DNA of 64,000 bases from Escherichia phage vB_Ec-G1, in sequence record PQ433349.1. One strand, 5' to 3'. Below are positions 4,484-60,351 of this stretch, one piece after another (the first letter of the stretch is position 1; each line of letters opens with the position of its first letter). The notes below the pieces were generated by a model, which was not told the DNA's origin, searched no databases, and saw nothing but the letters and a program-made list of their open reading frames with translations. The position numbers and the translations under genes are program-made.

Positions 4484-4735
4484 ATGCCGATCACTCCCCA
4501 TTTGGGGTTCGAAGGATATATGCAAAATAGTTTTTATTTTAGGTGCCGTGCTTGTAATAGGCATTTGACAAACCACTCCAGACGTGATAAAAATGGAGTC
4601 ATCAAGGAATCAGACCTCTGTTCTATTTGCACAGGTTTGGCTTTTGATGATAGTCCCGAAAGGGTTTATCAGCATCAATGTATAACAGACGTTCTCGTGT
4701 CAAACTTGGTAGAGGACGAACAACTAACAGATTAG
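4484..4735 (+). CDS. hypothetical Cys-rich protein (possible zinc ribbon)
   Basis: 83 aa with CRACN...CSIC pairs; RBS GAGGAG. Confidence 0.5.
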   Translation: MPITPHLGFEGYMQNSFYFRCRACNRHLTNHSRRDKNGVIKESDLCSICTGLAFDDSPERVYQHQCITDVLVSNLVEDEQLTD

Positions 4736-4743
4736 GAGGAACA

Positions 4744-4992
4744 ATGTCTCTATTAGAAAAACACGTGTTTGAAGATGGTAACGGCAATGCAGTTTTTCTT
4801 TTCCATCCAGAAAAATACACATCTGAAAACAATGGTACAACTTCTATTGTAATCACTAAAGATGTTAAAGTTATTGATTTCTTGGCTCTGATGCGAGAGA
4901 TGGATCTTGAAATTAATACTTTTAACGCAGAAGCTTTGGTTGTTGCTCTTCTGGAAAAGAAAGATAGTGAAGAAGTAGCAGAATATGCTTAA
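4744..4992 (+). CDS. hypothetical protein
   Basis: ATG at 4744 preceded by AGGAGGA; in-frame upstream extension to 4678 lacks RBS. Confidence 0.5.
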   Translation: MSLLEKHVFEDGNGNAVFLFHPEKYTSENNGTTSIVITKDVKVIDFLALMREMDLEINTFNAEALVVALLEKKDSEEVAEYA

Positions 4993-4999
4993 ATAACTA

Positions 5000-5029
5000 T
5001 TGACAAACGTATCCTTCATATGTTAGGAT
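5000..5029 (+). promoter_or_regulatory. sigma70-like promoter upstream of tRNA cluster
   Basis: TTGACA 5000-5005, 17/18-nt spacer, TTAGGAT; shares extended motif ACTATTGACAA...TATGTTAG with promoter at 5586. Confidence 0.5.
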
Positions 5030-5238
5030 ACGTTCATCAAGTGTGGTAACAGGGTCGTTGACTTTTGTTAAGAGGGGCTTGCACTGCGGTAGTGTTAGAG
5101 ACTACTTCTTCAGAGGTTAGCTACCAAAGAGGAAAAGGAATAGTCTCGGCTCAAGAACTTTTACGCTGAAAGTTGGGCTTGGTCTTAGAGAATGTAGCGG
5201 TTCTCTGCAATTGTCAGCGTCTCTGTTACCACATTTAT

Positions 5239-5313
5239 GGCCCTGTAGCTCAATGGGAGAGCTGTCGGCTCATAACCGATAGGTAGCTGGATCGAAACCA
5301 GCCAGGGCCACCA
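5239..5313 (+). tRNA. tRNA-Met: tRNA with CAT anticodon (Met/fMet/Ile2 not distinguishable)
   Basis: acceptor GGCCCTG/CAGGGCC, D-stem GCTC/GAGC, anticodon loop CTCATAA, T-arm GCTGG-ATCGAAA-CCAGC, CCA encoded. Confidence 0.75.
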
Positions 5314-5315
5314 AC

Positions 5316-5390
5316 GTCTTTATGGTGTAATGGATAGCACAGGAGTCTTCTAAACTCTTAGTCAAGGTTCGATTCCTTGTAAAGACACCA
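5316..5390 (+). tRNA. tRNA-Arg: tRNA-Arg (anticodon TCT)
   Basis: acceptor GTCTTTA/TAAAGAC, anticodon loop CTTCTAA, T-arm CAAGG-TTCGATT-CCTTG, CCA encoded. Confidence 0.75.
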
Positions 5391-5585
5391 GAACATTTTA
5401 ACATGAATTAGCTCAAGTGATTTGAACCCACTACTGATCATGGTGGCAGAGAATGAGGCAAGTATGTCAGACATTATAAACAAAGGCCACGGTTATATTA
5501 GAAGACATAAATGCTCGAAGAGCACCGTTCGTGGAGAACGGGGGTTGGTGGAGTCACCATTCATGGTAAAATGTTTTAAAAAACT

Positions 5586-5614
5586 ATTGACAACAAACAT
5601 TATTTTATGTTAGA
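5586..5614 (+). promoter_or_regulatory. sigma70-like promoter
   Basis: TTGACA 5586-5591, 17-nt spacer, TTAGAT. Confidence 0.5.
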
Positions 5615-5622
5615 TTATAAAT

Positions 5623-5713
5623 ATGGAAGGGCAAATCGACGTGGCGACGAAAACGGTCTTGAAAACCGCCGAGCTTGAAAGAGCCTTGGGAGTTCGACTC
5701 TCCCTCCTTCCGC
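5623..5713 (+). tRNA. tRNA-Ser: tRNA-Ser (anticodon TGA), long variable arm
   Basis: acceptor GGAAGGG/TCCTTCC, anticodon loop CTTGAAA, variable hairpin GAGC-TTGAAA-GAGC, T-arm GGGAG-TTCGACT-CTCCC, CCA; D-region spacing slightly atypical. Confidence 0.6.
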
Positions 5714-5737
5714 CAGATTGGTAGATTGGTAGATTGG
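5714..5737 (+). repeat. perfect tandem repeat (GATTGGTA)x3 spanning 5' end of tRNA-Ser(GCT)
   Basis: GATTGGTAGATTGGTAGATTGGTG read directly; second copy supplies the tRNA acceptor strand. Confidence 0.8.
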
Positions 5738-5811
5738 TGAAATGGTAGCCACAACAGTTTGCTAAACTGTAGTCGGAAACGGCGTGTAGGTTCGAGTCCT
5801 ACATCTACCGC
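5726..5811 (+). tRNA. tRNA-Ser: tRNA-Ser (anticodon GCT), long variable arm
   Basis: acceptor GGTAGAT/ATCTACC, anticodon stem ACAGT/ACTGT with loop TTGCTAA, T-arm GTAGG-TTCGAGT-CCTAC, CCA. Confidence 0.7.
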
Positions 5812-5941
5812 CAAGTTCTTTTTAATATAGCTTACTTTAATAGAGTAAATTTTCGGCAGATGGCCCCCATCATCTTACCGATACCTCATAGTTAGTGGTG
5901 CGAACACTGGCTATTTTAAAAAGAATTTAAATATTAGTATT

Positions 5942-6029
5942 TAGGTGAGTTAATTCCGTAGGGGTAGCGGGGCAGACTGTAAATCTGTTATCATTGCGAT
6001 TCGGGTGGTTCGACTCCATCACTCACCAC
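5942..6029 (+). tRNA. tRNA-Tyr: tRNA-Tyr (anticodon GTA), long variable arm
   Basis: acceptor GGTGAGT/ACTCACC, anticodon arm GCAGA-CTGTAAA-TCTGT, T-arm GGTGG-TTCGACT-CCATC, CCA; anticodon arm matches E. coli tRNA-Tyr as recalled. Confidence 0.8.
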
Positions 6030-6035
6030 CAAATT

Positions 6036-6121
6036 AAGATGAGTTGGCTGAATGGTTTAAGCAGCGGACTGTTAATCCGTGTTCGAAAGAACAATATAGG
6101 TTCGAATCCTATACTCATCGC
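6036..6121 (+). tRNA. tRNA, probable anticodon GTT (Asn) but with atypical long variable arm
   Basis: perfect acceptor GATGAGT/ACTCATC, T-arm ATAGG-TTCGAAT-CCTAT, CCA; best anticodon arm GCGGA-CTGTTAA-TCCGT; 15-nt extra hairpin GTTC-GAAA-GAAC. Confidence 0.45.
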
Positions 6122-6128
6122 CAGAATT

Positions 6129-6205
6129 ATGGACTTGTAGAGTTAAGGTAAACCCCCAGTCGCCAATAGGCTTCTGGAATTGCAGGTATCGAATCCTGCC
6201 GAGTC
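6129..6205 (+). pseudogene. tRNA-like element, probably non-functional or non-canonical
   Basis: acceptor-like GGACTTG/CGAGTCC and T-arm-like GCAGG-TATCGAAT-CCTGC (8-nt loop) but no convincing anticodon arm and no CCA. Confidence 0.3.
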
Positions 6206-6211
6206 CCAGCA

Positions 6212-6286
6212 TTGCTCCTATAGTATAATGGCTATTACAACGGTTTTGTAATCCGTGGATCTCTGTTCGATTCAGTGTGGGAGCAC
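6212..6286 (+). tRNA. tRNA-Thr: tRNA-Thr (anticodon TGT)
   Basis: acceptor GCTCCTA/TGGGAGC, anticodon stem ACGG/CCGT with loop containing TTTGTAA, T-loop TTCGATT, CCA. Confidence 0.6.
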
Positions 6287-6561
6287 CAACACAACATTAA
6301 GAGCACTGTGATTGATCGTCGTATCCTGTGCACAAGGTCTGCTCGAAAGACAGTGTTCTTAGTATTGTGTTGATCACAAAAAGAGTCACCCGAAACTTGA
6401 CCGGAGTAGGGTTGGATGGGGCAAAATGAGAAGCGGCTCTCCCATCGACAGCAACGAAGAATAATATTTGACTTTGGTTTTGTATTATTTTAAGTTAGCT
6501 TACCGAACGTAGGGCTAGTCACCCAACGGGATACTCGTCACTGTCCCAATCAATAAAAGTC

Positions 6562-6591
6562 TTGACAACAAATAGTAAAATGTAGTATAGT
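6562..6591 (+). promoter_or_regulatory. sigma70-like promoter upstream of tRNA-Gly
   Basis: TTGACA 6562-6567, 18-nt spacer, TATAGT. Confidence 0.55.
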
Positions 6592-6602
6592 AAATATATA
6601 GG

Positions 6603-6676
6603 GCGTTCTTGGTGTAGCGGTAGCATTCCGTCCTTCCAAGTCGGCGGCACGAGTTCGATCCTCGTAGAACGCTCCA
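6603..6676 (+). tRNA. tRNA-Gly: tRNA-Gly (anticodon TCC)
   Basis: acceptor GCGTTCT/AGAACGC, anticodon loop CTTCCAA, T-arm ACGAG-TTCGATC-CTCGT, CCA. Confidence 0.7.
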
Positions 6677-6772
6677 AATTATTTAATAAAGGGTTGCCAG
6701 AAAACTTTCTCTTTTACTCATGGTTTTCTCCTTCTCTCACACTTCTTCTGGTTGCCCTTCATTAAATGATTT

Positions 6773-6850
6773 ATTGGTTTGTAGTGTAGTCCGGTAGCAC
6801 ACGACACTTTGACTGTCGTAGGTTTGGTTCAAATCCAGACAGACCAGCCA
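6773..6850 (+). tRNA. tRNA-Gln: tRNA-Gln (anticodon TTG)
   Basis: acceptor TGGTTTG/CAGACCA (U1-A72), anticodon arm CGACA-CTTTGAC-TGTCG, T-arm TTTGG-TTCAAAT-CCAGA, CCA. Confidence 0.7.
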
Positions 6851-6855
6851 TATAA

Positions 6856-6932
6856 CGGAGTTTAGCTCAGTTTGGTAGAGCATACGCTTTGGGAGCGTAG
6901 GGTCGCAGGTTCGAATCCTGCAATTCCGACCA
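6856..6932 (+). tRNA. tRNA-Pro: tRNA-Pro (anticodon TGG)
   Basis: acceptor CGGAGTT/AATTCCG, D-stem GCTC/GAGC, anticodon arm TACGC-TTTGGGA-GCGTA, T-arm GCAGG-TTCGAAT-CCTGC, CCA. Confidence 0.8.
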
Positions 6933-6938
6933 ATTAAA

Positions 6939-7012
6939 TGTTTCGTAGTTCAATGGTAGAACCCACGACTGATAATCGTGAGACACAAGTTCGATTCTTG
7001 TCGAAACAACCA
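6939..7012 (+). tRNA. tRNA-Ile: tRNA-Ile (anticodon GAT)
   Basis: acceptor TGTTTCG/CGAAACA, D-stem GTTC/GAAC, anticodon arm CACGA-CTGATAA-TCGTG, T-arm ACAAG-TTCGATT-CTTGT, CCA. Confidence 0.8.
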
Positions 7013-7014
7013 GT

Positions 7015-7084
7015 TTCCCGTTAGACTTACAGGATAAGAGTTCCACAGCTTATTGTGATGCTGGTTCGAATCCAGCACGGGATA
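7015..7084 (+). tRNA. tRNA-like gene, anticodon unresolved (possible pseudo-tRNA)
   Basis: T-arm GCTGG-TTCGAAT-CCAGC and acceptor TTCCCGT/ACGGGAT (1:72 mismatch) but only a 4-bp CACA/TGTG stem with 6-nt loop where the anticodon arm should be; no CCA. Confidence 0.35.
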
Positions 7085-7090
7085 CATAAT

Positions 7091-7169
7091 AGCGGGATAG
7101 AGGAGTCTGGTCGTCCTCGCCAGTTTCATATGCTGGAGATCATCGGTTCAAATCCGATTCCCGCCTCCA
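7091..7169 (+). tRNA. tRNA-Met: tRNA with CAT anticodon, second copy (1:72 mismatch, initiator-like feature)
   Basis: acceptor AGCGGGA/TCCCGCC, D-stem GAGG/CCTC, anticodon arm CCAGT-TTCATAT-GCTGG, T-arm ATCGG-TTCAAAT-CCGAT, CCA. Confidence 0.65.
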
Positions 7170-7284
7170 AATATCGCTTGCCAGCGGTATCTTTGAAGAC
7201 CTTGCCTGGTTCCTTCTAAGATGGAGGGGTGCGACTCCTTAACGCACAATTATAATAAAGCATTTCAACTTAACAGTATTTACT

Positions 7285-7307
7285 AGCCTCCTTATTGGAG
7301 GCTTTTT
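7285..7307 (+). terminator. rho-independent terminator closing the tRNA cluster
   Basis: AGCCTCC-TTATT-GGAGGCT followed by TTTT. Confidence 0.7.
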
Positions 7308-7325
7308 GCTATCTATTGAATAAAA

Positions 7326-7354
7326 CTTGACTTATTATTTTTTATATGCTAAGA
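7326..7354 (+). promoter_or_regulatory. sigma70-like promoter
   Basis: TTGACT, 17-nt spacer, TAAGAT, then RBS AGGAGG and ATG at 7377. Confidence 0.6.
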
Positions 7355-7376
7355 TAAAGTTTAGGAGGATTTTATT

Positions 7377-7673
7377 ATGCCTAAACTAAAACGTGGTCGT
7401 GGAAGACCAACAGCCGAAATGCAACAGATCTATGCAATGGATGCGGCGCAAGCAAGTGTAAAAGAATTATTTGCAGAGCATTATTTAGAAGCTATGCGAT
7501 ATATTGTTGAACTTGTTAATGATAAGGATGCAGCAAAACCTCTCCGCTTCCAAGCAGCCAAAGCTATTAAAGAGCAAGTAGAAGAATGGTTAGAAGAACA
7601 TTATGAAGCTATGGAAGAAGAAACTCCTGCCGTGCAGAATACAGATGACGTTCCTAAAAAGATCGTAATCTAA
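7377..7673 (+). CDS. hypothetical DNA-binding protein (AT-hook-like N-terminus; small-terminase role not excluded)
   Basis: 98 aa; N-terminal PKLKRGRGRPT; strong RBS. Confidence 0.55.
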   Translation: MPKLKRGRGRPTAEMQQIYAMDAAQASVKELFAEHYLEAMRYIVELVNDKDAAKPLRFQAAKAIKEQVEEWLEEHYEAMEEETPAVQNTDDVPKKIVI

Positions 7674-7721
7674 TCCCTCTCCTCTCTTGGGGCTTTGCCC
7701 CTCCTCCTTGTTATTTTTAAC

Positions 7722-7760
7722 ACCCCTCTCCGAAAGGTTAGGGGCTTTTTTATTTTTAAT
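7722..7760 (+). terminator. rho-independent terminator
   Basis: CCCCT...AGGGG hairpin followed by CTTTTTTATTTTT; a second small hairpin GGGGC-TTT-GCCCC at 7689-7701. Confidence 0.6.
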
Positions 7761-7762
7761 AC

Positions 7763-7792
7763 TTGCAATTGTATATACTTTTGTGATAAGAT
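7763..7792 (+). promoter_or_regulatory. sigma70-like promoter
   Basis: TTGCAA, 18-nt spacer, TAAGAT (same -10 as promoter at 7326). Confidence 0.5.
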
Positions 7793-7813
7793 CAGATATG
7801 AGGAGGATAAAAT

Positions 7814-7984
7814 ATGCGCAATTTTGTAGTTAAAAATGATTTTAACCGTTCTTCTTATCATAAAGATAAAAAGAATGATTACACACGGGCTTGGAACTTG
7901 GAGGAAGAACTTTATGATGACAGAGAAGACGTGGGAAGAGATCCTAGCGGAGGCTCAACCAATGGAAGTGAAGAAGATAGTTAA
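7814..7984 (+). CDS. hypothetical small protein (alternative to overlapping frame 7914-8051)
   Basis: ATG 6 nt after AGGAGGA; 56 codons; not in supplied ORF track (<60 aa). Confidence 0.3.
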   Translation: MRNFVVKNDFNRSSYHKDKKNDYTRAWNLEEELYDDREDVGRDPSGGSTNGSEEDS

Positions 7985-8051
7985 TAATGCCCCTTCTCTT
8001 CCTAAAATAAAATTTTACGAGGAAGTAGAAGATAATGAATCTAAAGACTAA
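7914..8051 (+). CDS. hypothetical small protein (alternative frame)
   Basis: ATGATG after GGAGGAAG; 45 codons; overlaps 7814-7984 in another frame so at most one is likely real. Confidence 0.3.
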   Translation: MMTEKTWEEILAEAQPMEVKKIVNNAPSLPKIKFYEEVEDNESKD

Positions 8052-8427
8052 AACTGTATTAGGTTTTGTTTTAATTGTTGTTCTTATTCTTGCCGGAATG
8101 TTTGCTTATAACAAGATACGTGAGTCTGGCTACAAAGATGGTGTTGCCTATCAAACGCAATTATATCAAGCAGCCCAAGCAAAAGCAAAACAGGATTTTG
8201 ATGTTCTTCAAAAAAGAGCCGATGAAGAAAGAGCATTATTAAATACCCAAATAAACAACTTGTCTAAAAACAATGCACAATTAAAAGCAGATTTAGAGAA
8301 GAAGAAACAAACGATCAATGAGGATACAACGAATTATGCAAAAACTAATTCTGGCAGTATGTCTTGCTTTGCCCCTAATGATGACGGGTTGTTCATCATC
8401 AACAAAAGTTTCCCCAGTTCTTATTGA
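8035..8427 (+). CDS. putative i-spanin (Rz-like inner-membrane spanin subunit)
   Basis: 130 aa; N-terminal TM segment VLGFVLIVVLILAGMFAY then coiled-coil-like segment; o-spanin-like lipoprotein gene overlaps its 3' end in another frame. Confidence 0.6.
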   Translation: MNLKTKTVLGFVLIVVLILAGMFAYNKIRESGYKDGVAYQTQLYQAAQAKAKQDFDVLQKRADEERALLNTQINNLSKNNAQLKADLEKKKQTINEDTTNYAKTNSGSMSCFAPNDDGLFIINKSFPSSY

Positions 8428-8662
8428 TGAGTGTAAGGCTGTAGCCATAGAAAAGGTTAAAGGTCCAGATTCAGACTTGATGGATAAAGTATCGACACCT
8501 GTGCCATACACTAAAAATAAAATTGCAAAAGGGGTCAGTAGATCTGAAGTTGTTAACAACCAAACTCAAAACAACGCTCTTTGGGAGCAAGATAGACGAA
8601 AGGTTTTAGGTTTACAAACATATATTAAAACACTGCAAGAAAAAGGTATTATTGCTGAATAA
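8336..8662 (+). CDS. putative o-spanin (Rz1-like outer-membrane lipoprotein)
   Basis: signal peptide with lipobox LMMTGC; overlaps i-spanin out of frame; alternative start at 8318. Confidence 0.6.
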   Translation: MQKLILAVCLALPLMMTGCSSSTKVSPVLIDECKAVAIEKVKGPDSDLMDKVSTPVPYTKNKIAKGVSRSEVVNNQTQNNALWEQDRRKVLGLQTYIKTLQEKGIIAE

Positions 8663-8671
8663 GGAGGAAAT

Positions 8672-10747
8672 GTGGCAAAGAAAAAGGCAGCAGGTAGTTT
8701 AGCTGGAGTAGATATTGAAGTAAAGGCTCAACCAGGTAAACAGACTCTTGCAATGGATTTAATGCCAGAAGTTATGATTTATGGTGGTGCCGCTGGATGT
8801 GTTTCTGCTGAAACGGAATATCTTACAAAAGATGGTTGGAGACAGATTAGTGAATATTCAGGAGAGGATATTTACCAATACAACCCTAAGAATAAGCGTT
8901 TAGAATTGGTAACACCTTATTTTGTAGAATACGATTTAAATGGAGATAACCTATACAGAATAACAAATGGTGTAGGGTTGTTCCAAGAACTTAGTATGGA
9001 ACACCGTTTTGTATTCTATAAGAAAAAGAAATCAAAGAAACATTTCGAGATTCTTGTAGGAGATCTTATTGCATTACAGCAAATAGGAAAACCCCTTCAA
9101 GGTTATGTAGAAAATCCATTCGGTAAACGTGTTCCTTTTAACATACCTGGTAAAAAGAGCACTTACTTAAAAATACACGAGGTTATTTCAACAGATGATA
9201 AGAAATATTGTTTTGAGACTCCAAGCAGTTATATTGTCTTTAGACGTGGCGATCACTGCTTCGTTACTGGGAATAGCGGCAAGTCTCGTCTGCTATTGCT
9301 GAAAGCTTTAAAATACGCCTACAAAGATCCTTTGTTTGGTGGAATACTTTTTCGTAAGAACACCACTGCTCACCGTAAACCAGGTGGTCTGTTTACAGAA
9401 GCAAAACGTTTGTATCTTCCTTTACAACCGCACGTAAAAGAAAGTACAATGGATATCATTTTTGAAGCCACTGGTGGCGGAACCCTCAAATTCGACCATT
9501 TGGAAAATGATAACGTAACAGCAGAAACAAACCATCAGGGTACACAGTATTCAATGGTAGGTTTTGACGAGTTAACCCACTTCACGCAATATGAAATGCT
9601 CTATCTTCTGGGACGTATGCGTTCAGAATCAGAAACAAGCTTCATGTTGTGCACATGTAACCCCGATGCAGATAGTTGGGTTTTGAATTGGGTGTTACCT
9701 TATCTTGATGAGGGTGGTTATCCTAGAGAAGATATGTGTGGTAAACAAAAATATTTCATCATTGTTAACGATGAACCTGTTTTTGCTGACACACCTGAAG
9801 AACTGAAAGAAAAATATCCAGAAAACTGTTTCATGGAAAACCCTAATACAGGGGAGACAGTTGTTATTGAACCACAAACTTTCGTATTTATTGGTGGGAC
9901 AATATTTGATAACCCAGAACTGATTAGGCTTAACCCTAATTACTTAGCACAGCTTAAATCACAAACAGCAATTAAAAGAGCACAGCTTCTGGATGGTTGT
10001 TGGTTTGCACGTATTCAGAAAGAATCTTTCTTTCAACGTGAATGGTTACATAAAATATCTTATAAAGATGTTCCTAACAATCTTAAACTAATGCGAGCCT
10101 GGGATAAAGCTGTTTCAGTTCCTACAGAAACTTATCGTTATCCAGACTATACAACGTCTGTCAAAATGGGTAAAGATCAAGATGGTAATATCTACATCTT
10201 TGGTGACTATGACTATGACGCTGTGGATGAGAAAAGTAAAATTTTCGGAAGGTTTAGAAGACTACCTGGGGAAAGGGATAATCTGATTCTTAATCAATGT
10301 AAGATTGATGGACCAGAAGTTACAGTAGTGCTTCCTAAAGACCCATCTGGTGCTGGGACAATAGAATATACAGAGTCTGCAAAGAAACTTATTCTAGAAG
10401 GTTTTGTTGTTAAACCAGATGCTATGCCAGGTAACAAGAAAAAGCTTCAGCGTTTTATGCCTTTTAGTAGCGCGTGTCAAAATGGTTTTGTTTATATTGT
10501 TGAAGATTCTTTCCCTAATGTGGAAACTCTAACCCACTTTTATAAAGAATTGGAATCTTTCAATGGTGAAAGATCTACAGCCACTATTAAAGATGACATT
10601 CCCGATGCTGCTGCTTCTTGTTTCAATACTCTGTCAAAAGAGAATACTTTCAAGGCAGTAGCTATCCCTGCAACAACAAATGCTCCTACAGGATACAGTA
10701 GAATGAACAGCGGATTTCACCAACCGTATAGTGTCCGTAAAAGATAA
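8672..10747 (+). CDS. terminase large subunit, intein-containing precursor
   Basis: 691 aa; GTG start after AAGGAGG; Walker A split as GGAAG/SGKS around an insert, Walker B MVGFDELTHF; C-terminal nuclease-like region. Confidence 0.85.
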   Translation: MAKKKAAGSLAGVDIEVKAQPGKQTLAMDLMPEVMIYGGAAGCVSAETEYLTKDGWRQISEYSGEDIYQYNPKNKRLELVTPYFVEYDLNGDNLYRITNGVGLFQELSMEHRFVFYKKKKSKKHFEILVGDLIALQQIGKPLQGYVENPFGKRVPFNIPGKKSTYLKIHEVISTDDKKYCFETPSSYIVFRRGDHCFVTGNSGKSRLLLLKALKYAYKDPLFGGILFRKNTTAHRKPGGLFTEAKRLYLPLQPHVKESTMDIIFEATGGGTLKFDHLENDNVTAETNHQGTQYSMVGFDELTHFTQYEMLYLLGRMRSESETSFMLCTCNPDADSWVLNWVLPYLDEGGYPREDMCGKQKYFIIVNDEPVFADTPEELKEKYPENCFMENPNTGETVVIEPQTFVFIGGTIFDNPELIRLNPNYLAQLKSQTAIKRAQLLDGCWFARIQKESFFQREWLHKISYKDVPNNLKLMRAWDKAVSVPTETYRYPDYTTSVKMGKDQDGNIYIFGDYDYDAVDEKSKIFGRFRRLPGERDNLILNQCKIDGPEVTVVLPKDPSGAGTIEYTESAKKLILEGFVVKPDAMPGNKKKLQRFMPFSSACQNGFVYIVEDSFPNVETLTHFYKELESFNGERSTATIKDDIPDAAASCFNTLSKENTFKAVAIPATTNAPTGYSRMNSGFHQPYSVRKR
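8798..9274 (+). mobile_element. mini-intein (159 aa) inserted in terminase Walker A P-loop
   Basis: insert begins Cys43 (CVSAETEYLTKDGW), has TxxH-like SMEH, ends ...FVTGN201 followed by Ser; excision restores GGAAGSGKS. Confidence 0.7.
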
Positions 10748-26950: not shown

Positions 26951-29826
26951 TGTCAAGAGTTAAGCACAATATTGACAACACGTTTCAGTTGATTGAAGGG
27001 TTGGTTCAGTTTTTGGAAAGAAATACTGGGCTTACCATAGATCCTACGGTTCAGCATTACATTATCAACCCACAAAACGTATTGGCGAACAACAGACACT
27101 TTATTAACTGGACAGCGCAGGAAGGGCAACCAAACGGTGACGCTACTACCGAAGGTCAATCTGTGCTTATCACTGGTTTTGCTTATGCATATTTGGCTAC
27201 AGGGGATAAAAAATATCTTGAATCTGCCGAGAAGTATTGGCAAGCCTATATAGATCACTTCTTCGGGGGCCAACCTATTCCTGATCCTCCGGCTAAATAT
27301 CGTCCCAACTGGATCATCAATGGTAAAGAACCACGTTTAGCACACTACCCTCTCACAGATGATGGATATCCTACGCACGGCGGGTTCAAAGGTAGCATGA
27401 TGACTTGGATTAACGGAAGGACTGTTATTCCTAAAGGTGCGCCACACTGGGGAGAATACTTAGATAAAGCTTGGTTTGCTTTCAATGGTAATCTTGGTTG
27501 GAACTCTGTTAACGCAACAGTGTATGCAATTAACCCAGATGGTTCAACCAACTGGAAAGAATATGGAGATCAGTGGGACGTTGAATGGATTATAGATCGT
27601 CTAGGACGTAAAGTTGACTGGGATGGTAACATTTTATCTACTGGTCATAGCTTTGCAGAATATGGAACAGTGCAACTTAAAAACGCTTCTGTGAACGGTG
27701 ACTATAAATTCAACTACGCTACATGCAACCCTGTAGAACACGGTGGGTATCTACTTAAGCGTAATGAGATGTGGCATAACCGTCCTGTAAACGTTCCGGT
27801 AGAGTTAGGTTATCAAGATAATGCTTCCGATGCTGAAACGTGGTGGTGTGATGCAAACTACTTGATGTATCAGATCACAGGAGAGAGAAAATACTGGCTT
27901 TGCTGGCAATCTTCTTTATTGTTGTGTCAAGACTACTCAAACATCGATATGTTTGATAAATTCTTCCGTAGATCTACGTCAGCAATAATTCCTTTTACAG
28001 ATGGTATCTCTTATGATTACTCATACCCATCTACAGCAATACCTAAATATTCTCGTGACGAATTAGGATACACAGTAATTCGCCAAGATGTTTCAGCACA
28101 AACAACTCTAGAACAACAGGCAGTTTGGTTCAGAGTGGATCAGAATTCAAAACTGCGTATTGAGTTTCAAGGTGTAGATGATGCAGGGGAAGGCGTTCTT
28201 TTCCGTCCAGAGTTAGAATTAAGCAAGACTAAGAGTGAAACAGACACAGTGACATATCGTTGTGGCTTACCTCTTGGTGCAGCTAATATGACTAAGATGG
28301 ATATACCTCTATCTAGTTTTATGCGCACCGAACCTCCTGGAGGTGGTGTATATATTATTGCTGAACCTAGAATCATTGTTGACTGGGGAAGCAATACTGT
28401 GATACAATATAAATATGCAACTGGTATTGCTGGGACAAATAGTGATCAGATAGTTTCTGCTAATATGGATTCAGATGGTGGTTTTACTATTGGGTTTTGG
28501 TTAACACCAACTAAAACAACCAATTTAAAATCTATTACGTATCGTTCATACGCAGATGATTTTAACATCACTATTACGGATTCCGCAGGTTGGAGATGGT
28601 GGGCCATGTTAGAAAAAACAAATTCTACATGGGTTACTAAAGCTTTAAGTCCTGCTGATTTCAAATTAAGCACTTGGCAACCCAATCATAACGACACAGA
28701 GACAAAACCTTCGTCAATAAACCTGACTGCTGTTGATCAGATCAACATTGCATTGGATTCTGAACCTGCAAATGGCTTGACAGGGGCAATCGACTTTTAT
28801 TGCGTTAACGATATCCCATCTTTGTATTCTTCAGCCGCTGGTGATGATTACACAATGTATTTCAGGGTTACAGTTTCATCTGAAAATCCTTATACAGCAA
28901 AACTTGGAGATTGTACAATACTGGACTACAAACTTGACAGTTTGAATTATACTCCAGGAATCATTCCATTTTCCAATATTAGTGATCCTAACACAGCATT
29001 ATATGACGGTTGGCGTGGTATTCCTTACCCAGGTTATCAATACCCATCCTTATATTGTTTTAAAGGGAGAGATATTGACTGGGTTCGTATGAACAACAGT
29101 ATAGACTTTTTATATGATTCACAAATGTGGTTTTATAATAAGTTTGCTCCTGTAATGCCTGGGCCAATGGCACAAGCTTATGTTTGGGATCGTTGGGATG
29201 CTCATAAATATGGAAACAAAAATGAGTTCACAATGTATCATTGGAACGATAAAGCTTGGGATGGTTATGAAGCACGAGCATTCTTCTGTGCGTGTCATAC
29301 GGTATACGAACTGAAACAACGAGGAGCCGAAGTTCCTGAAAAACTTTTAACAGTTTGTAAAAACTGGATCAACTATCTGAAATGGTTCCAAGATAACAAC
29401 GAAGGAAGAACACCAACAATATTTTATCCCAATGGAGAAGTGGCTGCGCCTGTAGATGACTTTACAAGTCACATGTCTGCGCTCTTTATGGCGGGATGTG
29501 CTATAATGGGGATGGCTGGATATGATTCAGAAATTCCTAACATTAGAATAGTAGCAGACCGCTGTTTTGAACTTATTCAGGAAAACTATATTGTTCTTGG
29601 TCCTAATCACGTCATGAATGGTTGTTGGAGTGCCGCTCCTAGACCAGACAGTGATAACGGAGTCTTCTTTGGCTTCCACGCTGGAGAGTTGTTACGTGGT
29701 TTTGGGTTGTATGCTTTATACAAAAAACTTAATCCCCAAAATGCATTACCTGTTTTGGATTCGAGCAATATTCCTGCACTTACTGTTTTGACAATGGCAA
29801 ACATTAGTGTGGACGTTACCGAGTAA
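26950..29826 (+). CDS. large virion protein, possible glycoside-hydrolase-like barrel domains
   Basis: 958 aa; Trp/Tyr-rich segments (GFAYAYLATGDKKYLESAEKYWQAY) loosely resembling (alpha/alpha)-barrel glycosidases; no firm motif. Confidence 0.5.
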   Translation: MSRVKHNIDNTFQLIEGLVQFLERNTGLTIDPTVQHYIINPQNVLANNRHFINWTAQEGQPNGDATTEGQSVLITGFAYAYLATGDKKYLESAEKYWQAYIDHFFGGQPIPDPPAKYRPNWIINGKEPRLAHYPLTDDGYPTHGGFKGSMMTWINGRTVIPKGAPHWGEYLDKAWFAFNGNLGWNSVNATVYAINPDGSTNWKEYGDQWDVEWIIDRLGRKVDWDGNILSTGHSFAEYGTVQLKNASVNGDYKFNYATCNPVEHGGYLLKRNEMWHNRPVNVPVELGYQDNASDAETWWCDANYLMYQITGERKYWLCWQSSLLLCQDYSNIDMFDKFFRRSTSAIIPFTDGISYDYSYPSTAIPKYSRDELGYTVIRQDVSAQTTLEQQAVWFRVDQNSKLRIEFQGVDDAGEGVLFRPELELSKTKSETDTVTYRCGLPLGAANMTKMDIPLSSFMRTEPPGGGVYIIAEPRIIVDWGSNTVIQYKYATGIAGTNSDQIVSANMDSDGGFTIGFWLTPTKTTNLKSITYRSYADDFNITITDSAGWRWWAMLEKTNSTWVTKALSPADFKLSTWQPNHNDTETKPSSINLTAVDQINIALDSEPANGLTGAIDFYCVNDIPSLYSSAAGDDYTMYFRVTVSSENPYTAKLGDCTILDYKLDSLNYTPGIIPFSNISDPNTALYDGWRGIPYPGYQYPSLYCFKGRDIDWVRMNNSIDFLYDSQMWFYNKFAPVMPGPMAQAYVWDRWDAHKYGNKNEFTMYHWNDKAWDGYEARAFFCACHTVYELKQRGAEVPEKLLTVCKNWINYLKWFQDNNEGRTPTIFYPNGEVAAPVDDFTSHMSALFMAGCAIMGMAGYDSEIPNIRIVADRCFELIQENYIVLGPNHVMNGCWSAAPRPDSDNGVFFGFHAGELLRGFGLYALYKKLNPQNALPVLDSSNIPALTVLTMANISVDVTE

Positions 29827-29834
29827 GGGGTAAA

Positions 29835-31996: not shown

Positions 31997-33619
31997 ATGT
32001 CAACTACAATTACTAATTTACCCGAAACATCAAAAGTTAATGGTTCAGATTACCTGGTTTTAGACCAACCTGATAAGACTGTTAAAAGCACAGTTTCCAA
32101 CTTTCTTGCTGACACTGGGGTGGTTTTAGCCACCCAGTTGAAAGATACAGATGGAGCAGATTTAATAGGCTCACCACATGCCGGAACTCTGGCACAAATG
32201 TTGCCGTGGGTTACTCCAGAGCAATTTGGCGCTGTTGGTGACGGTGTAACAGATGATATTGCGGCTCTTGACGCCTGTATGTCATACGCGAGAGAACGCG
32301 GAGTAGATATCGTATTTTCCAAAACTTATGCCATTTCCAGACCCTACGTAATATATATGGGGCTACGGAGGAACCCACGCCATATAGGTATGGGTAATAT
32401 GGCAAAAATAATCATTACAACTACGGCCACATCTGGGCTTCCGGTTGATTCTTATGAGATTCCTATGGACGTTAACGCGGCTGTTATTGTAGCCGCGATC
32501 ACAGGTACAGGGTATAACCAGCAACCACAGAACTTCCGCTGGGAAAACATCGACATTGATACTACTGTAAATGCAGATTACGGCATGTATACGACAAAAA
32601 TGCAATCAGCATCCATACGGAACTTCAGGACTCATAATTTCAAAACAGGTATCCAAGATAACGGGTCATGGAATACTTTGTATGAAAATATAAAAATGAC
32701 AAAACACAGTATTGTTGGCTTCCGTAAGACTAGGGGTACTAGCACTACTATACGTAACTGTTATGTAGAGCAATCCACCGTAGGGTATCACGTTCGCAGT
32801 GGCTATTCTCAGCTTGAGGGTTGTGCTTGTGATACAAGTACAGATGTATCTTATTGGATTGAAGGCAACCCTGTAGCGTCTAGTAGTGACGATACTTTCT
32901 CTATTGTATCTTGTGGCTCAGAGAACTCAGGCAAAGCTGTTATACGATTAACTGGTACAGTTACACTTAGTGTAAGAAACTTCCAAGCATTTAACTGGGC
33001 GCAGCAGCAAGACCCTATACCTGAATACTTCATGGATTTACAGTCAAATAGCGCTAGTATATCTCTTGAAGATATACGGTATTTAGGTATTAGCGCCGGA
33101 CGAATAAAAGATACTGGGGTTAGTAACAATATAACCATTCGCAACATGACTACACGTGGAAGCGATGTGCGCAGCGGCGATGTACTGCCGAATAGCACCA
33201 AGATTATTGAAATGTCGCGTTCAGGTGTTCGTGTGTCTTCCGGTTATTCCCCTGATGGGATACTTATAGATTTTGACAATCTCTTCTTCACCACAGGGTC
33301 TAGCACTCAGCCAGTAAACTACAGTCCATTATTCAATAAGCAGCGTATATACCGCACGAAGGTGACGGTAACAAGAACATCGGGAACATATGGGAGAGCA
33401 CAAGTAACTTTGCCATTCAATTTTTCTGATACAAGTTATGTAGTGCAACTTACACCCAATGTGTACCATACCGACATAGCTACACATGCTCTCGTGGCTA
33501 CTGTTGGGCCTACAGACAAGACAGTAAACAGTTTTTATGTAAATTTAGGTAGCATCAACGGCAGCAGTACGTGGACTAGTTGTCAGGTTGATGTTACCGT
33601 TTTCGGACTGACTCCATAA
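31997..33619 (+). CDS. tailspike with right-handed beta-helix (pectate-lyase-like) domain, putative depolymerase
   Basis: 540 aa; FGAVGDGVTDDIAALDAC motif near N-terminus of the helix domain; N-terminal virion-attachment-like segment. Confidence 0.7.
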   Translation: MSTTITNLPETSKVNGSDYLVLDQPDKTVKSTVSNFLADTGVVLATQLKDTDGADLIGSPHAGTLAQMLPWVTPEQFGAVGDGVTDDIAALDACMSYARERGVDIVFSKTYAISRPYVIYMGLRRNPRHIGMGNMAKIIITTTATSGLPVDSYEIPMDVNAAVIVAAITGTGYNQQPQNFRWENIDIDTTVNADYGMYTTKMQSASIRNFRTHNFKTGIQDNGSWNTLYENIKMTKHSIVGFRKTRGTSTTIRNCYVEQSTVGYHVRSGYSQLEGCACDTSTDVSYWIEGNPVASSSDDTFSIVSCGSENSGKAVIRLTGTVTLSVRNFQAFNWAQQQDPIPEYFMDLQSNSASISLEDIRYLGISAGRIKDTGVSNNITIRNMTTRGSDVRSGDVLPNSTKIIEMSRSGVRVSSGYSPDGILIDFDNLFFTTGSSTQPVNYSPLFNKQRIYRTKVTVTRTSGTYGRAQVTLPFNFSDTSYVVQLTPNVYHTDIATHALVATVGPTDKTVNSFYVNLGSINGSSTWTSCQVDVTVFGLTP

Positions 33620-33624
33620 AACTA

Positions 33625-33643
33625 AGCCCCCGAATTGGGGGGC
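33625..33643 (+). terminator. GC hairpin after tailspike gene
   Basis: GCCCCC-GAATT-GGGGGGC, no clear T-tract. Confidence 0.4.
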
Positions 33644-34104: not shown

Positions 34105-34409
34105 ATGAAATGTTCTCCCAAGGTGGTAAAGGTTCAACCGGAATCTTAACCAATAAACAAGCAGTAGCCCGTCACTTTGGAGTTAAACAATCTGAGGTTG
34201 TTTACTTCTCAGTTGGTGTGGATTTGGGTGGGTATAAGGTTGTCTATGATAAGGAGACGCAAAGGGCGTATTCCCTACCTGCTGATATTGCCTCAGGTAT
34301 TACTGCCATTAGTCTTAGTGCTGCTGTACTTGTGCATTCAGCGGGTTCTGTAGACCTTGGGGAATTAGCTGTATATCGTGATTTAAAAAGTAATGAGAAC
34401 GCACCATGA
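34101..34409 (+). CDS. hypothetical protein
   Basis: 102 aa, RBS AAAGAGG. Confidence 0.45.
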   Translation: MNEMFSQGGKGSTGILTNKQAVARHFGVKQSEVVYFSVGVDLGGYKVVYDKETQRAYSLPADIASGITAISLSAAVLVHSAGSVDLGELAVYRDLKSNENAP

Positions 34410-34648
34410 GAAAATTTTTAATAGGTATGTTTTGTACATATCCTGATAATAAAGTCAGTTCTACTAAAGTCTGGAACGCTGTAGGCATGTCGGTTATGAC
34501 AGGCATGTTTATCTTTTTAGGAATAGAAAAAGAAATTCCTGAATGGATGGGTTGGGCTTTTGTTTTCATGATAACCCCTTCTCGCCTCATGAAAAATCTT
34601 ATTGATTTACGTTGGGGCAGATCACAATCTACCAAAGAGGATGACTAA
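34406..34648 (+). CDS. small membrane protein with two predicted TM segments (holin-like topology)
   Basis: 80 aa; hydrophobic stretches VWNAVGMSVMTGMFIFLGI and WMGWAFVFMITPS, charged C-terminus. Confidence 0.4.
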   Translation: MRKFLIGMFCTYPDNKVSSTKVWNAVGMSVMTGMFIFLGIEKEIPEWMGWAFVFMITPSRLMKNLIDLRWGRSQSTKEDD

Positions 34649-59829: not shown

Positions 59830-60351
59830 TTAACTCCCCTTTGGTAGATAGAAACCATGCACTTTATCTCGATAAACAAGACGCATATCACGCTCCCAGT
59901 GTGTCCTTATATTCCGTTTCTTGAAGTATAGAGCACCTTTAGTAACATCTAAAACAGACCGCAATTCAGGAAAATGTTTCTCTAAATAAAGTAAACGCTC
60001 CGCTATTGCTTTTGCTTCCTGCCACTTATCTTTCTCTGTTACGTTAAAAGTTTTCGCATATGAGAATTGCCCTTTCTGGAACAAGACTCCTCTGACTGTG
60101 TTAGGAAAGTAGGCATCATTTCTTCTATTGATTACCACATTCCCAACGGCATTCATTCCTTTTTTACCCAGACCGCGACCTTCTGCGTAAATTGCACAAG
60201 CTAATAGAATTTTATCATTATATTGCTTTGTACATTTGTGAACTACTTTAGCGGTTTTTACGTTTGCAGCTTCGGCTTTCGCCACAACAGGTGTAAATGT
60301 AAAAGCAGTTAAGGATAGTAACGCAACTGTTACAAAGTTTTTTATCAGCAA
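59830..60351 (-). CDS. secreted cell-wall hydrolase (SleB-like), candidate endolysin
   Basis: 173 aa; N-terminal signal peptide-like FVTVALLSLTAFTFTPVVAKA; CAIYAEGRG...GNVVINR; TTG start after AAGGAGG. Confidence 0.65.
   Translation of the reverse strand: MLIKNFVTVALLSLTAFTFTPVVAKAEAANVKTAKVVHKCTKQYNDKILLACAIYAEGRGLGKKGMNAVGNVVINRRNDAYFPNTVRGVLFQKGQFSYAKTFNVTEKDKWQEAKAIAERLLYLEKHFPELRSVLDVTKGALYFKKRNIRTHWERDMRLVYRDKVHGFYLPKGS

What the first reader, a model, noticed from the sequence alone, without database searches (positions are those of the whole stretch)
8035..8662. Overlapped two-component spanin pair located beside the terminase, far from the candidate endolysin
An N-terminally anchored coiled-coil protein (8035-8427) has a lipoprotein gene (lipobox LMMTGC) starting inside its 3' end in another frame, the classic Rz/Rz1 architecture. 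No endolysin or holin is adjacent. The only muralytic candidate seen is the signal-peptide SleB-like hydrolase at 59830-60351 on the other arm, so the lysis functions appear dispersed.
Basis: partly seen in the sequence, partly recalled or inferred. Interest (0 to 1): 0.5.

Follow-up and report, generated by a model that had tools for sequence, protein, structure and literature searches.

The report
Known overlapped spanin pair, phAPEC8-like phage
The two overlapping genes are the outer-membrane-disrupting "spanin" pair of a phAPEC8-like E. coli phage; the reading is correct, but the pair was catalogued in 2018 and is annotated in reference genomes, so the finding is ordinary.

Summary
ORF 8035-8427 encodes a 130-aa protein with an N-terminal membrane anchor and a long helix. 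ORF 8318-8662, in the +1 frame, encodes a lipoprotein with lipobox LMMTGC. The two overlap by 110 nt and end 9 nt before the large terminase gene.

The window is a Phapecoctavirus (phAPEC8/ESCO5-like E. coli myovirus, 99% identical to deposited genomes). RefSeq ESCO5 annotates the same two ORFs as "Rz-like spanin" and "o-spanin". Kongari et al. 2018 list the nearly identical phAPEC8 pair as an overlapped two-component spanin of the "phi92" family.

The pair and its position upstream of the terminase are conserved across Stephanstirmvirinae. The homologous but "separated" spanins of PVP-SE1 occupy the same position.

Dispersed lysis genes are real but already described for this group and for T4. 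Relatives carry a T4 E-like lysozyme about 29 kb upstream of the spanins, outside the window. It is at least as good an endolysin candidate as the SleB-like hydrolase.

No experiment exists for this spanin family, so function is inferred. Verdict: correct, already known, low interest.

The parts
8035..8427 (+). i-spanin gene (130 aa): N-in/C-out membrane anchor at residues 7-25 (nt 8053-8109), periplasmic helix to about residue 104, and a conserved non-helical C-terminal tail carrying one conserved Cys (C111).
   Evidence: ORF. Hydrophobicity. AlphaFold helix 3-104. PHROG 4297 'Rz-like spanin', E 3e-35. RefSeq ESCO5 gp260 'Rz-like spanin'. The phAPEC8 gp121 entry in Kongari 2018 Table S1 differs by 2 aa.
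8318..8662 (+). o-spanin gene (114 aa from ATG 8318; more likely 108 aa from ATG 8336). It has a lipoprotein signal with lipobox LMMTGC (nt 8375-8392), Ser at +2, a 90-aa mature protein, one further conserved Cys, and a C-terminal motif DRrK..LQtYIKtLQ.
   Evidence: ORF. Lipobox and homologue starts. PHROG 1267 'Rz-like spanin', E 1e-20. RefSeq ESCO5 gp259 'o-spanin'. phAPEC8_00146 in Kongari 2018.
8318..8427 (+). Dual-coding overlap (110 nt; 92 nt if the o-spanin starts at 8336). It encodes the i-spanin C-terminal tail in frame 0 and the o-spanin signal peptide and lipobox in frame +1.
   Evidence: Both frames stay open and keep their features in phi92, Klebsiella 05F01 and phi1_175008, at about 41-55% (i-spanin) and 37-65% (o-spanin) identity. 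Kongari 2018 gives 110 bp for phAPEC8 and 95 bp for phi92.
7689..7757 (+). Two GC hairpins followed by T-runs (7689-7701 and 7723-7744). This terminator-like element closes the upstream 98-aa gene, and the spanin-terminase transcription unit probably starts after it.
   Evidence: Sequence. Fold of -23.7 kcal/mol, z -2.85. The consensus scan did not flag it because of its loop-length rule. The transcription unit is an inference.
7814..8051 (+). Two small hydrophilic genes (56 aa at 7814-7984; 29 aa at 7962-8051) with good ribosome-binding sites. They lead the unit that contains the spanins and are not holins.
8672..10747 (+). Large terminase subunit gene, 9 nt downstream of the o-spanin stop codon. 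It is the conserved right-hand neighbour of the spanin pair.
   Evidence: PF03237 E 5e-17 and PHROG 979 E 1.5e-216. The same synteny occurs in ESCO5, phi92, 05F01, phi1_175008 and PVP-SE1.
59830..60351 (-). SleB/Hydrolase_2-type cell-wall hydrolase with an N-terminal signal-like segment. It is one of two candidate endolysins of this phage group and lies 51 kb from the spanins on the other strand.
   Evidence: PF07486 at 64 bits. TIGR02869 partial hit. Sequence. ESCO5 gp207 'endolysin / putative cell wall hydrolase SleB'.
34406..34648 (+). 80-aa protein with two hydrophobic segments and a charged C-terminus, inside the tail module. It is a possible but unproven holin candidate.
   Evidence: sequence. 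PHROG 1322 'membrane protein'. Conserved in 371 phage records of the rV5-like supergroup.

Best explanation
These two genes encode the two-component spanin of a Phapecoctavirus (phAPEC8-like E. coli myovirus).

The 130-aa product is the inner-membrane subunit (i-spanin). It has a type II anchor and a long periplasmic helix or coiled coil, ending in a conserved tail.

The 108/114-aa product is the outer-membrane subunit (o-spanin). It would be made as a prolipoprotein, lipidated on the lipobox Cys and cleaved by signal peptidase II. Because residue +2 is Ser, it would be sent by Lol to the inner leaflet of the outer membrane.

The two subunits would bind through their periplasmic ends to form a bridge threaded through the peptidoglycan mesh. 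Once a holin-released or exported muralytic enzyme destroys the mesh, the complexes are free to collapse and fuse the inner and outer membranes. That removes the last barrier to phage release.

The genes sit at the head of the late packaging and structural unit, immediately before the large terminase, and are not part of a lysis cassette. This position is tolerable because spanins stay inert until peptidoglycan is degraded.

Shown here: the ORFs, the membrane anchor, the helix, the lipobox, the overlap, their conservation, their family membership, and their prior annotation.

Inferred from the lambda, P2 and T4 paradigms: subcellular location, complex formation, membrane fusion, and timing.
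For: The ORFs and their features are. The lipobox is rare in this window. The AlphaFold model gives a single helix over residues 3-104 at high confidence.

Both proteins match PHROG families annotated 'Rz-like spanin': 4297 (E 3e-35) and 1267 (E 1.4e-20). RefSeq ESCO5 annotates the same two ORFs, with the same lengths, as 'Rz-like spanin' and 'o-spanin'.

Kongari et al. 2018 (PMC6139136), Table S1, lists the phAPEC8 pair as 'ovl'. It differs from the window by 2 aa and 1 aa. The entry gives a 110-bp overlap, family 'phi92', lipobox MMTG, and one predicted coiled coil at residues 42-106.

The pair, its overlap and its position (tRNA cluster, small ORFs, spanins, TerL, portal) are conserved in phi92 and two Klebsiella phages. 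One conserved periplasmic Cys is present in each subunit.

PVP-SE1 gp78/gp77 are homologous: 27% identity at E 8e-5, and 31% at E 2e-9, with the same PHROGs. They also lie directly upstream of TerL, and Kongari lists them as separated spanins.

No terminator lies between the o-spanin and TerL. A terminator-like element lies upstream at 7689-7757.
Against: No member of this spanin family has been tested experimentally, as far as the searched literature shows. [quoted passage not shown]

There is no significant match to the curated lambda Rz/Rz1 or P2 LysB models. Pfam gives none. TIGR03495 LysB scores 14.8 bits against a cut-off of 92.75.

The i-spanin model shows one uninterrupted helix rather than the two coiled-coil segments with a hinge described for lambda Rz. 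The o-spanin is long (90 aa mature) and has only four prolines. Mechanistic details may therefore differ from lambda.

Lipoprotein processing and signal peptidase II cleavage were judged by pattern only, because no LipoP or SignalP was available. The o-spanin start codon is ambiguous (8318 or 8336).
Confidence: 0.9

Rival explanations
1. The spanin reading is right, but the spanins' muralytic partner is not the SleB-like hydrolase in the window. It is instead a cytoplasmic T4 E-like lysozyme encoded outside the window and released by an unlinked holin, giving a T4-style lysis system of separate genes.
For: ESCO5 gp080 (29570-30070) is 166 aa, matches PF00959, has no signal sequence, and is about 48% identical to the lysozymes of T4-like phages. 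It is present at 95% identity or more in 64 records, and at 60-90% in 68 more, which matches the spread of the spanin pair. The rV5 paper names the pfam00959 lysozyme as the 'obvious lysin', with a holin separated from it 'as in phage T4' (PMC3606486).
Against: The gene is not in the window, so its presence in this phage is inferred from relatives that are 99% identical. RefSeq labels the SleB-like protein 'endolysin'. The BME3 paper treats both as endolysins (PMC12210895). Neither has been tested by knockout.
Confidence: 0.55
2. The SleB-like hydrolase (59830-60351) is the working endolysin. It would be exported by Sec through its N-terminal segment, either as a signal-anchor-release enzyme or as a cleaved secreted enzyme. 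Lysis timing would then be set by a pinholin or by membrane depolarisation.
For: The Hydrolase_2 domain scores above the Pfam cut-off. The N-terminal hydrophobic stretch NFVTVALLSLTAFTFTPVVA is rich in Thr, Ser and Ala and is followed by AKA|EA. It is annotated 'endolysin' in ESCO5.
Against: The gene lies among replication, glycosyltransferase and TerD genes on the opposite strand, not among late genes. A T4-type soluble lysozyme is also encoded by the relatives. The export mode was not predicted with a dedicated tool. Nothing links it specifically to the spanins.
Confidence: 0.3
3. The pair is not a spanin. The lipoprotein would be an outer-membrane superinfection-exclusion or receptor-blocking protein of the Cor/Llp type. 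The membrane-anchored helical protein would be unrelated, and the overlap would be mere gene packing.
For: Phage lipoproteins with other roles do exist (established knowledge). A negligible PHROG hit to Cor was seen at E 0.97. No experiment has tested this family.
Against: The strict pairing of a type II membrane helix protein with a downstream lipoprotein gene is conserved over deep divergence, in both overlapped and separated forms. Both proteins fall into spanin PHROGs with strong E-values. No other spanin candidate was seen in the window. ESCO5 annotates none elsewhere in its genome.
Confidence: 0.04
4. The second ORF is a spurious overlapping reading frame and only the 130-aa protein is real.
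For: Several deposited genomes do not annotate it, for example phi92 RefSeq and phAPEC8_ev052.
Against: The frame stays open and is 37-65% identical at protein level across the subfamily, which is better conserved than the i-spanin. It keeps its lipobox and C-terminal motif. The lipobox is rare by chance. Under-annotation of overlapped o-spanin genes is a documented artefact: 196 of 528 were missing in Kongari 2018.
Confidence: 0.01

Closest known systems
phAPEC8 gp121 / phAPEC8_00146 and phi92 gp118 plus its unannotated o-spanin (the 'phi92' overlapped two-component spanin family of Kongari et al. 2018; also RefSeq ESCO5 gp260/gp259)
   Same: It is essentially the same genes. The proteins are 130 and 114 aa and differ from phAPEC8 by 2 and 1 residues. 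The overlap is 110 bp, the lipobox is MMTG|C, and the position before TerL is the same.
   Different: Nothing of substance differs. The likely start at 8336 rather than 8318 is a minor annotation point.
rV5 / PVP-SE1 spanins (PVP-SE1 gp78/gp77; Kongari 'rv5' family, separated architecture)
   Same: The proteins are homologous: same PHROGs 4297 and 1267, 27% and 31% identity. They have the same topology signals and the same location immediately upstream of the large terminase gene.
   Different: The PVP-SE1 genes overlap by only 4 bp and so count as 'separated', whereas here the overlap is 92-110 nt. Kongari's clustering placed the two groups in different families.
P2 LysB/LysC (prototype of the overlapped architecture)
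   Same: The o-spanin gene starts inside the 3' end of the i-spanin gene in the +1 frame and runs past its stop codon. The topology of both subunits is the same.
   Different: There is no significant sequence relationship: TIGR03495 LysB scores 14.8 bits against a cut-off of 92.75. P2 LysB/LysC lie in a lysis cassette with the holin and endolysin (established knowledge), whereas this pair does not.
Lambda Rz/Rz1
   Same: It would work in the same way: an inner-membrane coiled-coil subunit plus an outer-membrane lipoprotein, periplasmic cysteines, and outer-membrane disruption after peptidoglycan breakdown.
   Different: Lambda Rz1 is fully embedded in Rz, its mature form is only 40 aa, and it is proline-rich. 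Lambda Rz has two coiled-coil segments with a hinge. Here the genes are overlapped, the mature o-spanin is 90 aa, and one continuous helix is predicted. There is no Pfam Rz or Rz1 match. The lambda genes are in the SRRzRz1 cassette.
T4 PseT.2/PseT.3 and the T4 lysis gene layout
   Same: The lysis genes are scattered around a large myovirus genome, with lysozyme, holin and spanins unlinked. The relatives' lysozyme is a T4 E homologue. The rV5 paper draws the same analogy.
   Different: The T4 spanin genes are separated rather than overlapped, belong to a different sequence family, and are not next to the terminase gene (Kongari 2018; established knowledge).

Membership tests
Two-component spanin (i-spanin/o-spanin; criteria of Summer 2007 and Kongari 2018) | The i-spanin has a single N-terminal transmembrane domain in N-in/C-out (type II) topology. 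| tested here: met
   The hydrophobic segment at residues 7-25 has a Kyte-Doolittle mean of 2.59. K4 and K6 lie on the N side. No other hydrophobic segment is present. This is a prediction only.
Two-component spanin (i-spanin/o-spanin; criteria of Summer 2007 and Kongari 2018) | The periplasmic domain of the i-spanin is largely alpha-helical or coiled coil. | tested here: met
   AlphaFold gives a helix over residues 3-104 with pLDDT 87-97. For the near-identical phAPEC8 protein, Kongari's file 4 gives a coiled coil at 42-106.
Two-component spanin (i-spanin/o-spanin; criteria of Summer 2007 and Kongari 2018) | The o-spanin has an outer-membrane lipoprotein signal: a lipobox with an invariant Cys and no Asp at +2. 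| tested here: met
   ...ALPLMMTG|CSSS fits the PROSITE-type pattern and has Ser at +2. Processing itself cannot be tested here.
Two-component spanin (i-spanin/o-spanin; criteria of Summer 2007 and Kongari 2018) | The o-spanin gene is embedded in, overlapping, or immediately downstream of the i-spanin gene. | tested here: met
   The gene is in the +1 frame with a 110-nt overlap (92 nt from ATG 8336) and extends 235 nt beyond the i-spanin stop. This is the 'overlapped' class.
Two-component spanin (i-spanin/o-spanin; criteria of Summer 2007 and Kongari 2018) | Periplasmic cysteines are available for intermolecular disulfides. | tested here: met
   One conserved Cys occurs in the i-spanin tail (C111, motif MSCF). 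One conserved Cys occurs in the mature o-spanin (motif E/Q-C-K). Both are conserved in four lineages. Disulfide formation was not tested.
Two-component spanin (i-spanin/o-spanin; criteria of Summer 2007 and Kongari 2018) | The pair is required for outer-membrane disruption: spherical-cell arrest in Mg2+ when mutated, and complementation of lambda Rz/Rz1. | not testable with these tools
   This is a wet-lab phenotype. No report for this family was found in the searched literature.
phi92/phAPEC8 spanin sequence family (PHROG 4297 and PHROG 1267) | Significant sequence match of both subunits to the family profiles or members. | tested here: met
   PHROG 4297 at E 3.2e-35 and PHROG 1267 at E 1.4e-20. 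Identity to phAPEC8-group proteins is 98-99%.
Lambda Rz / Rz1 family (embedded architecture) | Sequence match to the Rz and Rz1 models, with the o-spanin gene wholly embedded in the i-spanin gene. | tested here: not met
   No Pfam Rz or Rz1 family appears among hits up to E = 1. The o-spanin gene runs past the i-spanin stop. The pair works like Rz/Rz1 but is not a member of that family.
P2 LysB/LysC family | Match to TIGR03495 (phage_LysB) above its cut-off. | tested here: not met
   14.8 bits against a cut-off of 92.75, E 0.025. The architecture class is shared but the sequence family is not.
Canonical lysis cassette (holin-endolysin-spanin cluster) | The spanin genes are contiguous with holin and endolysin genes. 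| tested here: not met
   The neighbours are two small hydrophilic ORFs and TerL. The muralytic genes lie 51 kb downstream (window) and about 29 kb upstream (ESCO5). This is not a defining feature of spanins.

The most novel reading that the evidence does not exclude
The most novel reading not excluded concerns the lysis system as a whole, not the spanins. This phage group may lyse E. coli with two muralytic enzymes of different export logic. One is a cytoplasmic T4-type lysozyme that needs a large-hole holin. The other is a Sec-exported SleB-type hydrolase made from the replication arm. The spanins would be hard-wired to the packaging operon. If the exported SleB-type enzyme were a true second (signal-anchor-release or secreted) endolysin acting with the same spanins, that would be an unusual dual-endolysin arrangement for a coliphage.
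Probability: 0.15. Interest if true: 0.3.

Novelty: already known. Interest (0 to 1): 0.08.

Why it matters
It matters little beyond correct annotation. The pair is the expected outer-membrane disruption module of a well-sampled group of therapeutic-candidate coliphages (phAPEC8/ESCO5-like), and it was already in a curated spanin census.

Three practical points follow.

1. Many deposited Phapecoctavirus and phi92-like genomes still label the o-spanin "hypothetical" or omit it, so the annotation could be propagated.
2. The holin of this group is still unidentified, and the true endolysin has not been assigned by experiment.
3. The phi92-type overlapped pair and the rV5-type separated pair are homologous and syntenic. 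They are a convenient natural pair for studying how spanin gene overlap evolves.

Tried and rejected
- **Curated models for the two proteins.** Pfam and NCBIfam gave only sub-threshold coiled-coil noise and a sub-threshold LysB hit. PHROGs were informative.

- **Holin search next to the spanins and in the window.** The adjacent small ORFs have no membrane segment. An unannotated TTG ORF at 7687-7833 with one hydrophobic stretch lies over the terminator hairpins, so I dismissed it. The only plausible in-window candidate is the 80-aa two-segment protein at 34406-34648. It has no holin family match (PHROG 1322 'membrane protein'; no Pfam hit). Going by gene numbering, it is probably not the gp129 proposed as holin in rV5. 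The question is left open.

- **Membrane-protein scan of the rest of ESCO5.** Many small membrane proteins turned up in the early regions and none could be singled out. The ESCO5 product name 'hol-like chemotaxis' (gp113) refers to a coiled-coil protein without a membrane segment, not a holin.

- **Other muralytic domains in the window.** None was found in ten large tail and baseplate proteins.

- **ESCO5 'lipoprotein' gp229 (window 38394-38729) as an alternative outer-membrane lipoprotein.** It has no lipobox; it is a membrane anchor plus coiled coil.

- **Promoter scan.** The number of hits is no greater than in shuffled sequence, so it is uninformative.

- **Intein test on the TerL insertion.** There was no Pfam, NCBIfam or PDB sequence hit. 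BLAST against my recalled Npu DnaE intein matched only the first 10 residues (E 0.05). The single-sequence AlphaFold model was unusable at pLDDT 37, so I ran no fold search.

- **Large protein-database and metagenome searches.** I did not use them because the answer was already clear from annotated phage genomes and the literature.
Full report
**What the window is.** A 3.5-kb stretch around the finding is 99.3% identical to Escherichia phage KKP 3954 and 99.0% identical to Escherichia phage ESCO5. It is 98% identical to many other phAPEC8-like genomes. These are about 150-kb myoviruses of the genus Phapecoctavirus, subfamily Stephanstirmvirinae. The window runs from the end of an early or replication arm through a tRNA cluster, then through the packaging, head and tail genes on the + strand. 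It ends in a second replication arm on the - strand.

**Checking the observation.**
- ORF 8035-8427 encodes 130 aa.
- ORF 8318-8662 encodes 114 aa in the +1 frame, giving a 110-nt overlap.
- The first protein has one strongly hydrophobic segment (residues 7-25, Kyte-Doolittle mean 2.59) after a short basic N-terminus.
- A single-sequence AlphaFold model puts residues 3-104 into one continuous helix with pLDDT about 87-97. The last 26 residues are unstructured.
- The second protein begins MRIQRIMQKLILAVCLALPLMMTGC|SSS, which fits the standard lipobox pattern and has Ser at +2.

I checked that such a pattern is not common here. Of 436 ATG-started ORFs of at least 60 aa in all six frames, four matched, and two of those are this gene's two possible starts. 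The other two are an antisense ORF and an internal Met of a tail protein. Shuffled sequence gave 3 hits in 20 trials.

The large terminase gene (PF03237; PHROG 979, E 1.5e-216) begins 9 nt after the o-spanin stop codon.

One refinement concerns the start codon. In phi92 and in Klebsiella phages 05F01 and phi1_175008, the homologous lipoprotein starts at the position of Met7. A GAGGA lies 11 nt upstream of ATG 8336, while nothing comparable precedes 8318. The real product is therefore probably 108 aa with the lipid-modified Cys at position 19. Either start gives a workable signal peptide.

**What it is.** Both proteins match PHROG families annotated as spanins. The i-spanin matches PHROG 4297 (E 3.2e-35) and the lipoprotein matches PHROG 1267 (E 1.4e-20). 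RefSeq ESCO5 annotates ORFs of identical length and position as "Rz-like spanin" (gp260) and "o-spanin" (gp259).

The spanin census of Kongari et al. 2018 (PMC6139136) lists phAPEC8 gp121 and phAPEC8_00146 in its supplementary table as an overlapped ("ovl") two-component spanin. These sequences differ from the window by two residues and one residue. The entry gives a 110-bp overlap, lipobox MMTG, a 90-aa mature o-spanin, one predicted coiled coil at residues 42-106 of the i-spanin, and family "phi92". The finding is therefore a rediscovery of a catalogued gene pair.

**Conservation.**
- tblastn finds the i-spanin in 133 phage records and the o-spanin in 137. These are essentially all Phapecoctavirus and Justusliebigvirus (phi92-like) genomes plus related Klebsiella phages.
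- In phi92, 05F01 and phi1_175008 the proteins are only 41-55% (i-spanin) and 37-65% (o-spanin) identical to the window's. Each still keeps the membrane anchor, the lipobox, an overlap of about 95 nt, one conserved periplasmic Cys per subunit, and the conserved motifs.
- Those motifs are the i-spanin tail SG.MSCF.PND.GL.IIN.SFP and the o-spanin C-terminus LWE.DR.K...LQ.YIK.LQ.
- The overlap thus encodes two conserved peptides in two frames, which rules out a spurious ORF.
- The gene order tRNA cluster, small ORFs, i/o-spanin, TerL, portal is the same in all of them.

The relationship reaches further. In Salmonella phage PVP-SE1 (Vequintavirinae, rV5-like), gp78 has a membrane anchor plus coiled coil, and gp77 has lipobox LLVGC. 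They lie directly upstream of TerL with a 4-bp overlap. Kongari lists them as "separated" spanins. They are homologous to the window's pair, at 27% identity (E 8e-5) and 31% identity (E 2e-9), and fall in the same PHROGs. Placement of the spanins beside the terminase is therefore an old, conserved trait of this large phage lineage and not a peculiarity of this genome.

**Surroundings and likely expression.** After the last tRNA there is a terminator (7285-7303), a promoter-like site, and a 98-aa gene (7377-7673). That gene belongs to PHROG 3330 of unknown function. One depositor calls it a small terminase subunit, which I could not verify. It is followed by two GC hairpins with T-runs at 7689-7701 and 7723-7744 (-23.7 kcal/mol, z -2.85).

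Next come two small hydrophilic genes with good ribosome-binding sites (56 aa at 7814-7984; 29 aa at 7962-8051). They are followed by the i-spanin (GAGGAAG 9 nt upstream), the o-spanin and TerL, with no terminator-like site in between. I infer that the spanins are transcribed with the packaging genes as part of a late unit. This is inference from sequence only. Rfam found nothing but tRNAs in 4500-9000.

**The rest of the lysis system.** ESCO5 labels it "endolysin". I found no other Pfam muralytic domain in ten large structural proteins of the window.

The window, however, covers less than half of the genome. In ESCO5 a 166-aa T4 E-like lysozyme without a signal sequence (gp080, 29570-30070, PF00959) lies about 29 kb upstream of the spanins on the other strand, beyond the window's left edge. 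It is about 48% identical to the lysozymes of T4-like phages. It occurs at 95% identity or more in 64 records and at 60-90% in 68 more, the same spread as the spanin pair.

The literature already says this. [quoted passage not shown] The rV5 paper names the pfam00959 lysozyme as the obvious lysin, with the putative holin separated from it "as in phage T4" (PMC3606486).

Which enzyme works with the spanins has not been tested. I lean towards the T4-type lysozyme as the main endolysin (about 0.55). The SleB-like protein would then be an alternative or additional enzyme.

The holin is unidentified. The best in-window candidate is an 80-aa protein with two hydrophobic segments and a charged C-terminus (34406-34648). 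It is conserved in 371 phage records inside the tail module, but it has no holin family match.

**How it most likely works.** I apply the established spanin model, built on lambda Rz/Rz1, P2 LysB/LysC and T4 PseT.2/PseT.3. This is established knowledge and was not tested here.
- The i-spanin sits in the inner membrane with its helix in the periplasm.
- The o-spanin is lipidated, cleaved by signal peptidase II, and delivered by Lol to the outer membrane, since Ser at +2 gives no retention signal.
- The two subunits join through their periplasmic ends and are caged by the peptidoglycan mesh.
- When the endolysin removes the mesh, the complexes collapse and fuse the two membranes.

Two features suggest that the structural details differ from lambda: the single uninterrupted helix, and the long mature o-spanin with few prolines and a helical C-terminal part. 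These features are already tabulated for this family.

**Comparison and membership.**
- The pair meets all sequence-testable criteria of a two-component spanin of the overlapped class. It is a member of the phi92/phAPEC8 family.
- It is not a member of the lambda Rz/Rz1 sequence family, having no Pfam match and not being embedded.
- It is not a member of the P2 LysB family (TIGR03495 at 14.8 bits against a cut-off of 92.75).
- It is not part of a lysis cassette, which spanins do not require.

**Verdict.** Confidence that this is a functional spanin pair is about 0.9. The remaining doubt exists only because no one has tested this family experimentally. Interest is low.

Noticed in passing
window 8798-9274 (inside the large terminase gene 8672-10747): A 159-aa insertion splits the Walker A motif of TerL: VMIYGGAAG|CVSAETEY...DHCFVTGN|SGKSRLLLL. 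PVP-SE1 TerL (IIGGAAGSGKSYLL) and Aeromonas phage 2L372X TerL (VMIYGGAAGSGKSRLLL) have the motif uninterrupted. The insertion starts with Cys, ends with Asn, and is followed by Ser, as in a mini-intein. phi92 has it too. There was no Pfam, NCBIfam or PDB sequence hit, and the single-sequence AlphaFold model was unusable at pLDDT 37. The intein reading therefore rests on position and junction residues only.
   Followed up: partly
window 34406-34648 (+): This 80-aa protein has two hydrophobic segments and a charged C-terminus (…RWGRSQSTKEDD). It sits between tail-fibre genes and is conserved in 371 phage records across the rV5-like supergroup (PHROG 1322 'membrane protein'). It is a possible holin, but that is unproven.
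   Followed up: partly
window 31997-34409 compared with ESCO5 83032-85797: ESCO5 has one 921-aa tail protein here. The window instead has three ORFs of 540, 147 and 102 aa. The 102-aa ORF (34101-34409) matches only the N-terminal anchor domain of tailspike proteins (PHROG 7992 and others). This looks like a swapped or split receptor-binding module.
   Followed up: no
window 5944-6028 (+): Rfam finds an eleventh tRNA here (39 bits, 85 nt) that ARAGORN did not report. ESCO5 does not annotate it either.
   Followed up: no
window 38394-38729 (+): The ESCO5 homologue (gp229) is annotated 'lipoprotein', but the protein has no lipobox. It is an N-terminal hydrophobic segment followed by a coiled coil, placed after the tail-fibre assembly gene.
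   Followed up: partly
ESCO5 29570-30070 (locus L002), outside the window: A T4 E-like soluble lysozyme (166 aa, PF00959, about 48% identical to the lysozymes of T4-like phages) is conserved in all Stephanstirmvirinae. It is the probable main endolysin and lies about 21 kb beyond the window's left edge.
   Followed up: yes
locus L008 (PVP-SE1) 1574-2262: PVP-SE1 gp78/gp77 are homologous spanins in the 'separated' arrangement at the same place, directly upstream of TerL. The phi92-type overlapped pair and the rV5-type separated pair are therefore one family in two architectures. PHROGs group them, whereas Kongari 2018 lists them as separate families.
   Followed up: yes
locus L009 (Aeromonas phage 2L372X) 2393-4234: TerL is annotated as two CDSs about 380 nt apart, and the missing TerL segment can be read in another frame just before the second CDS. 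The arrangement looks like an intron or a frameshift.
   Followed up: no
window 7327-7355 and about 7763-7792 (+): The 98-aa gene and the spanin/terminase unit are each preceded by a similar promoter-like pair: TTGACT...TAAGAT and TTGCAA...TAAGAT. This may be a phage-specific promoter motif. Only the first passed the consensus scan.
   Followed up: no
window 60451-61053 (-) and neighbours: The SleB-like hydrolase gene sits next to a TerD-domain protein (PF02342, E 3e-28). In ESCO5 it lies near 'tellurite resistance' and TerC-like genes and four glycosyltransferase genes. That is a stress and DNA-modification neighbourhood, not a lysis one.
   Followed up: no
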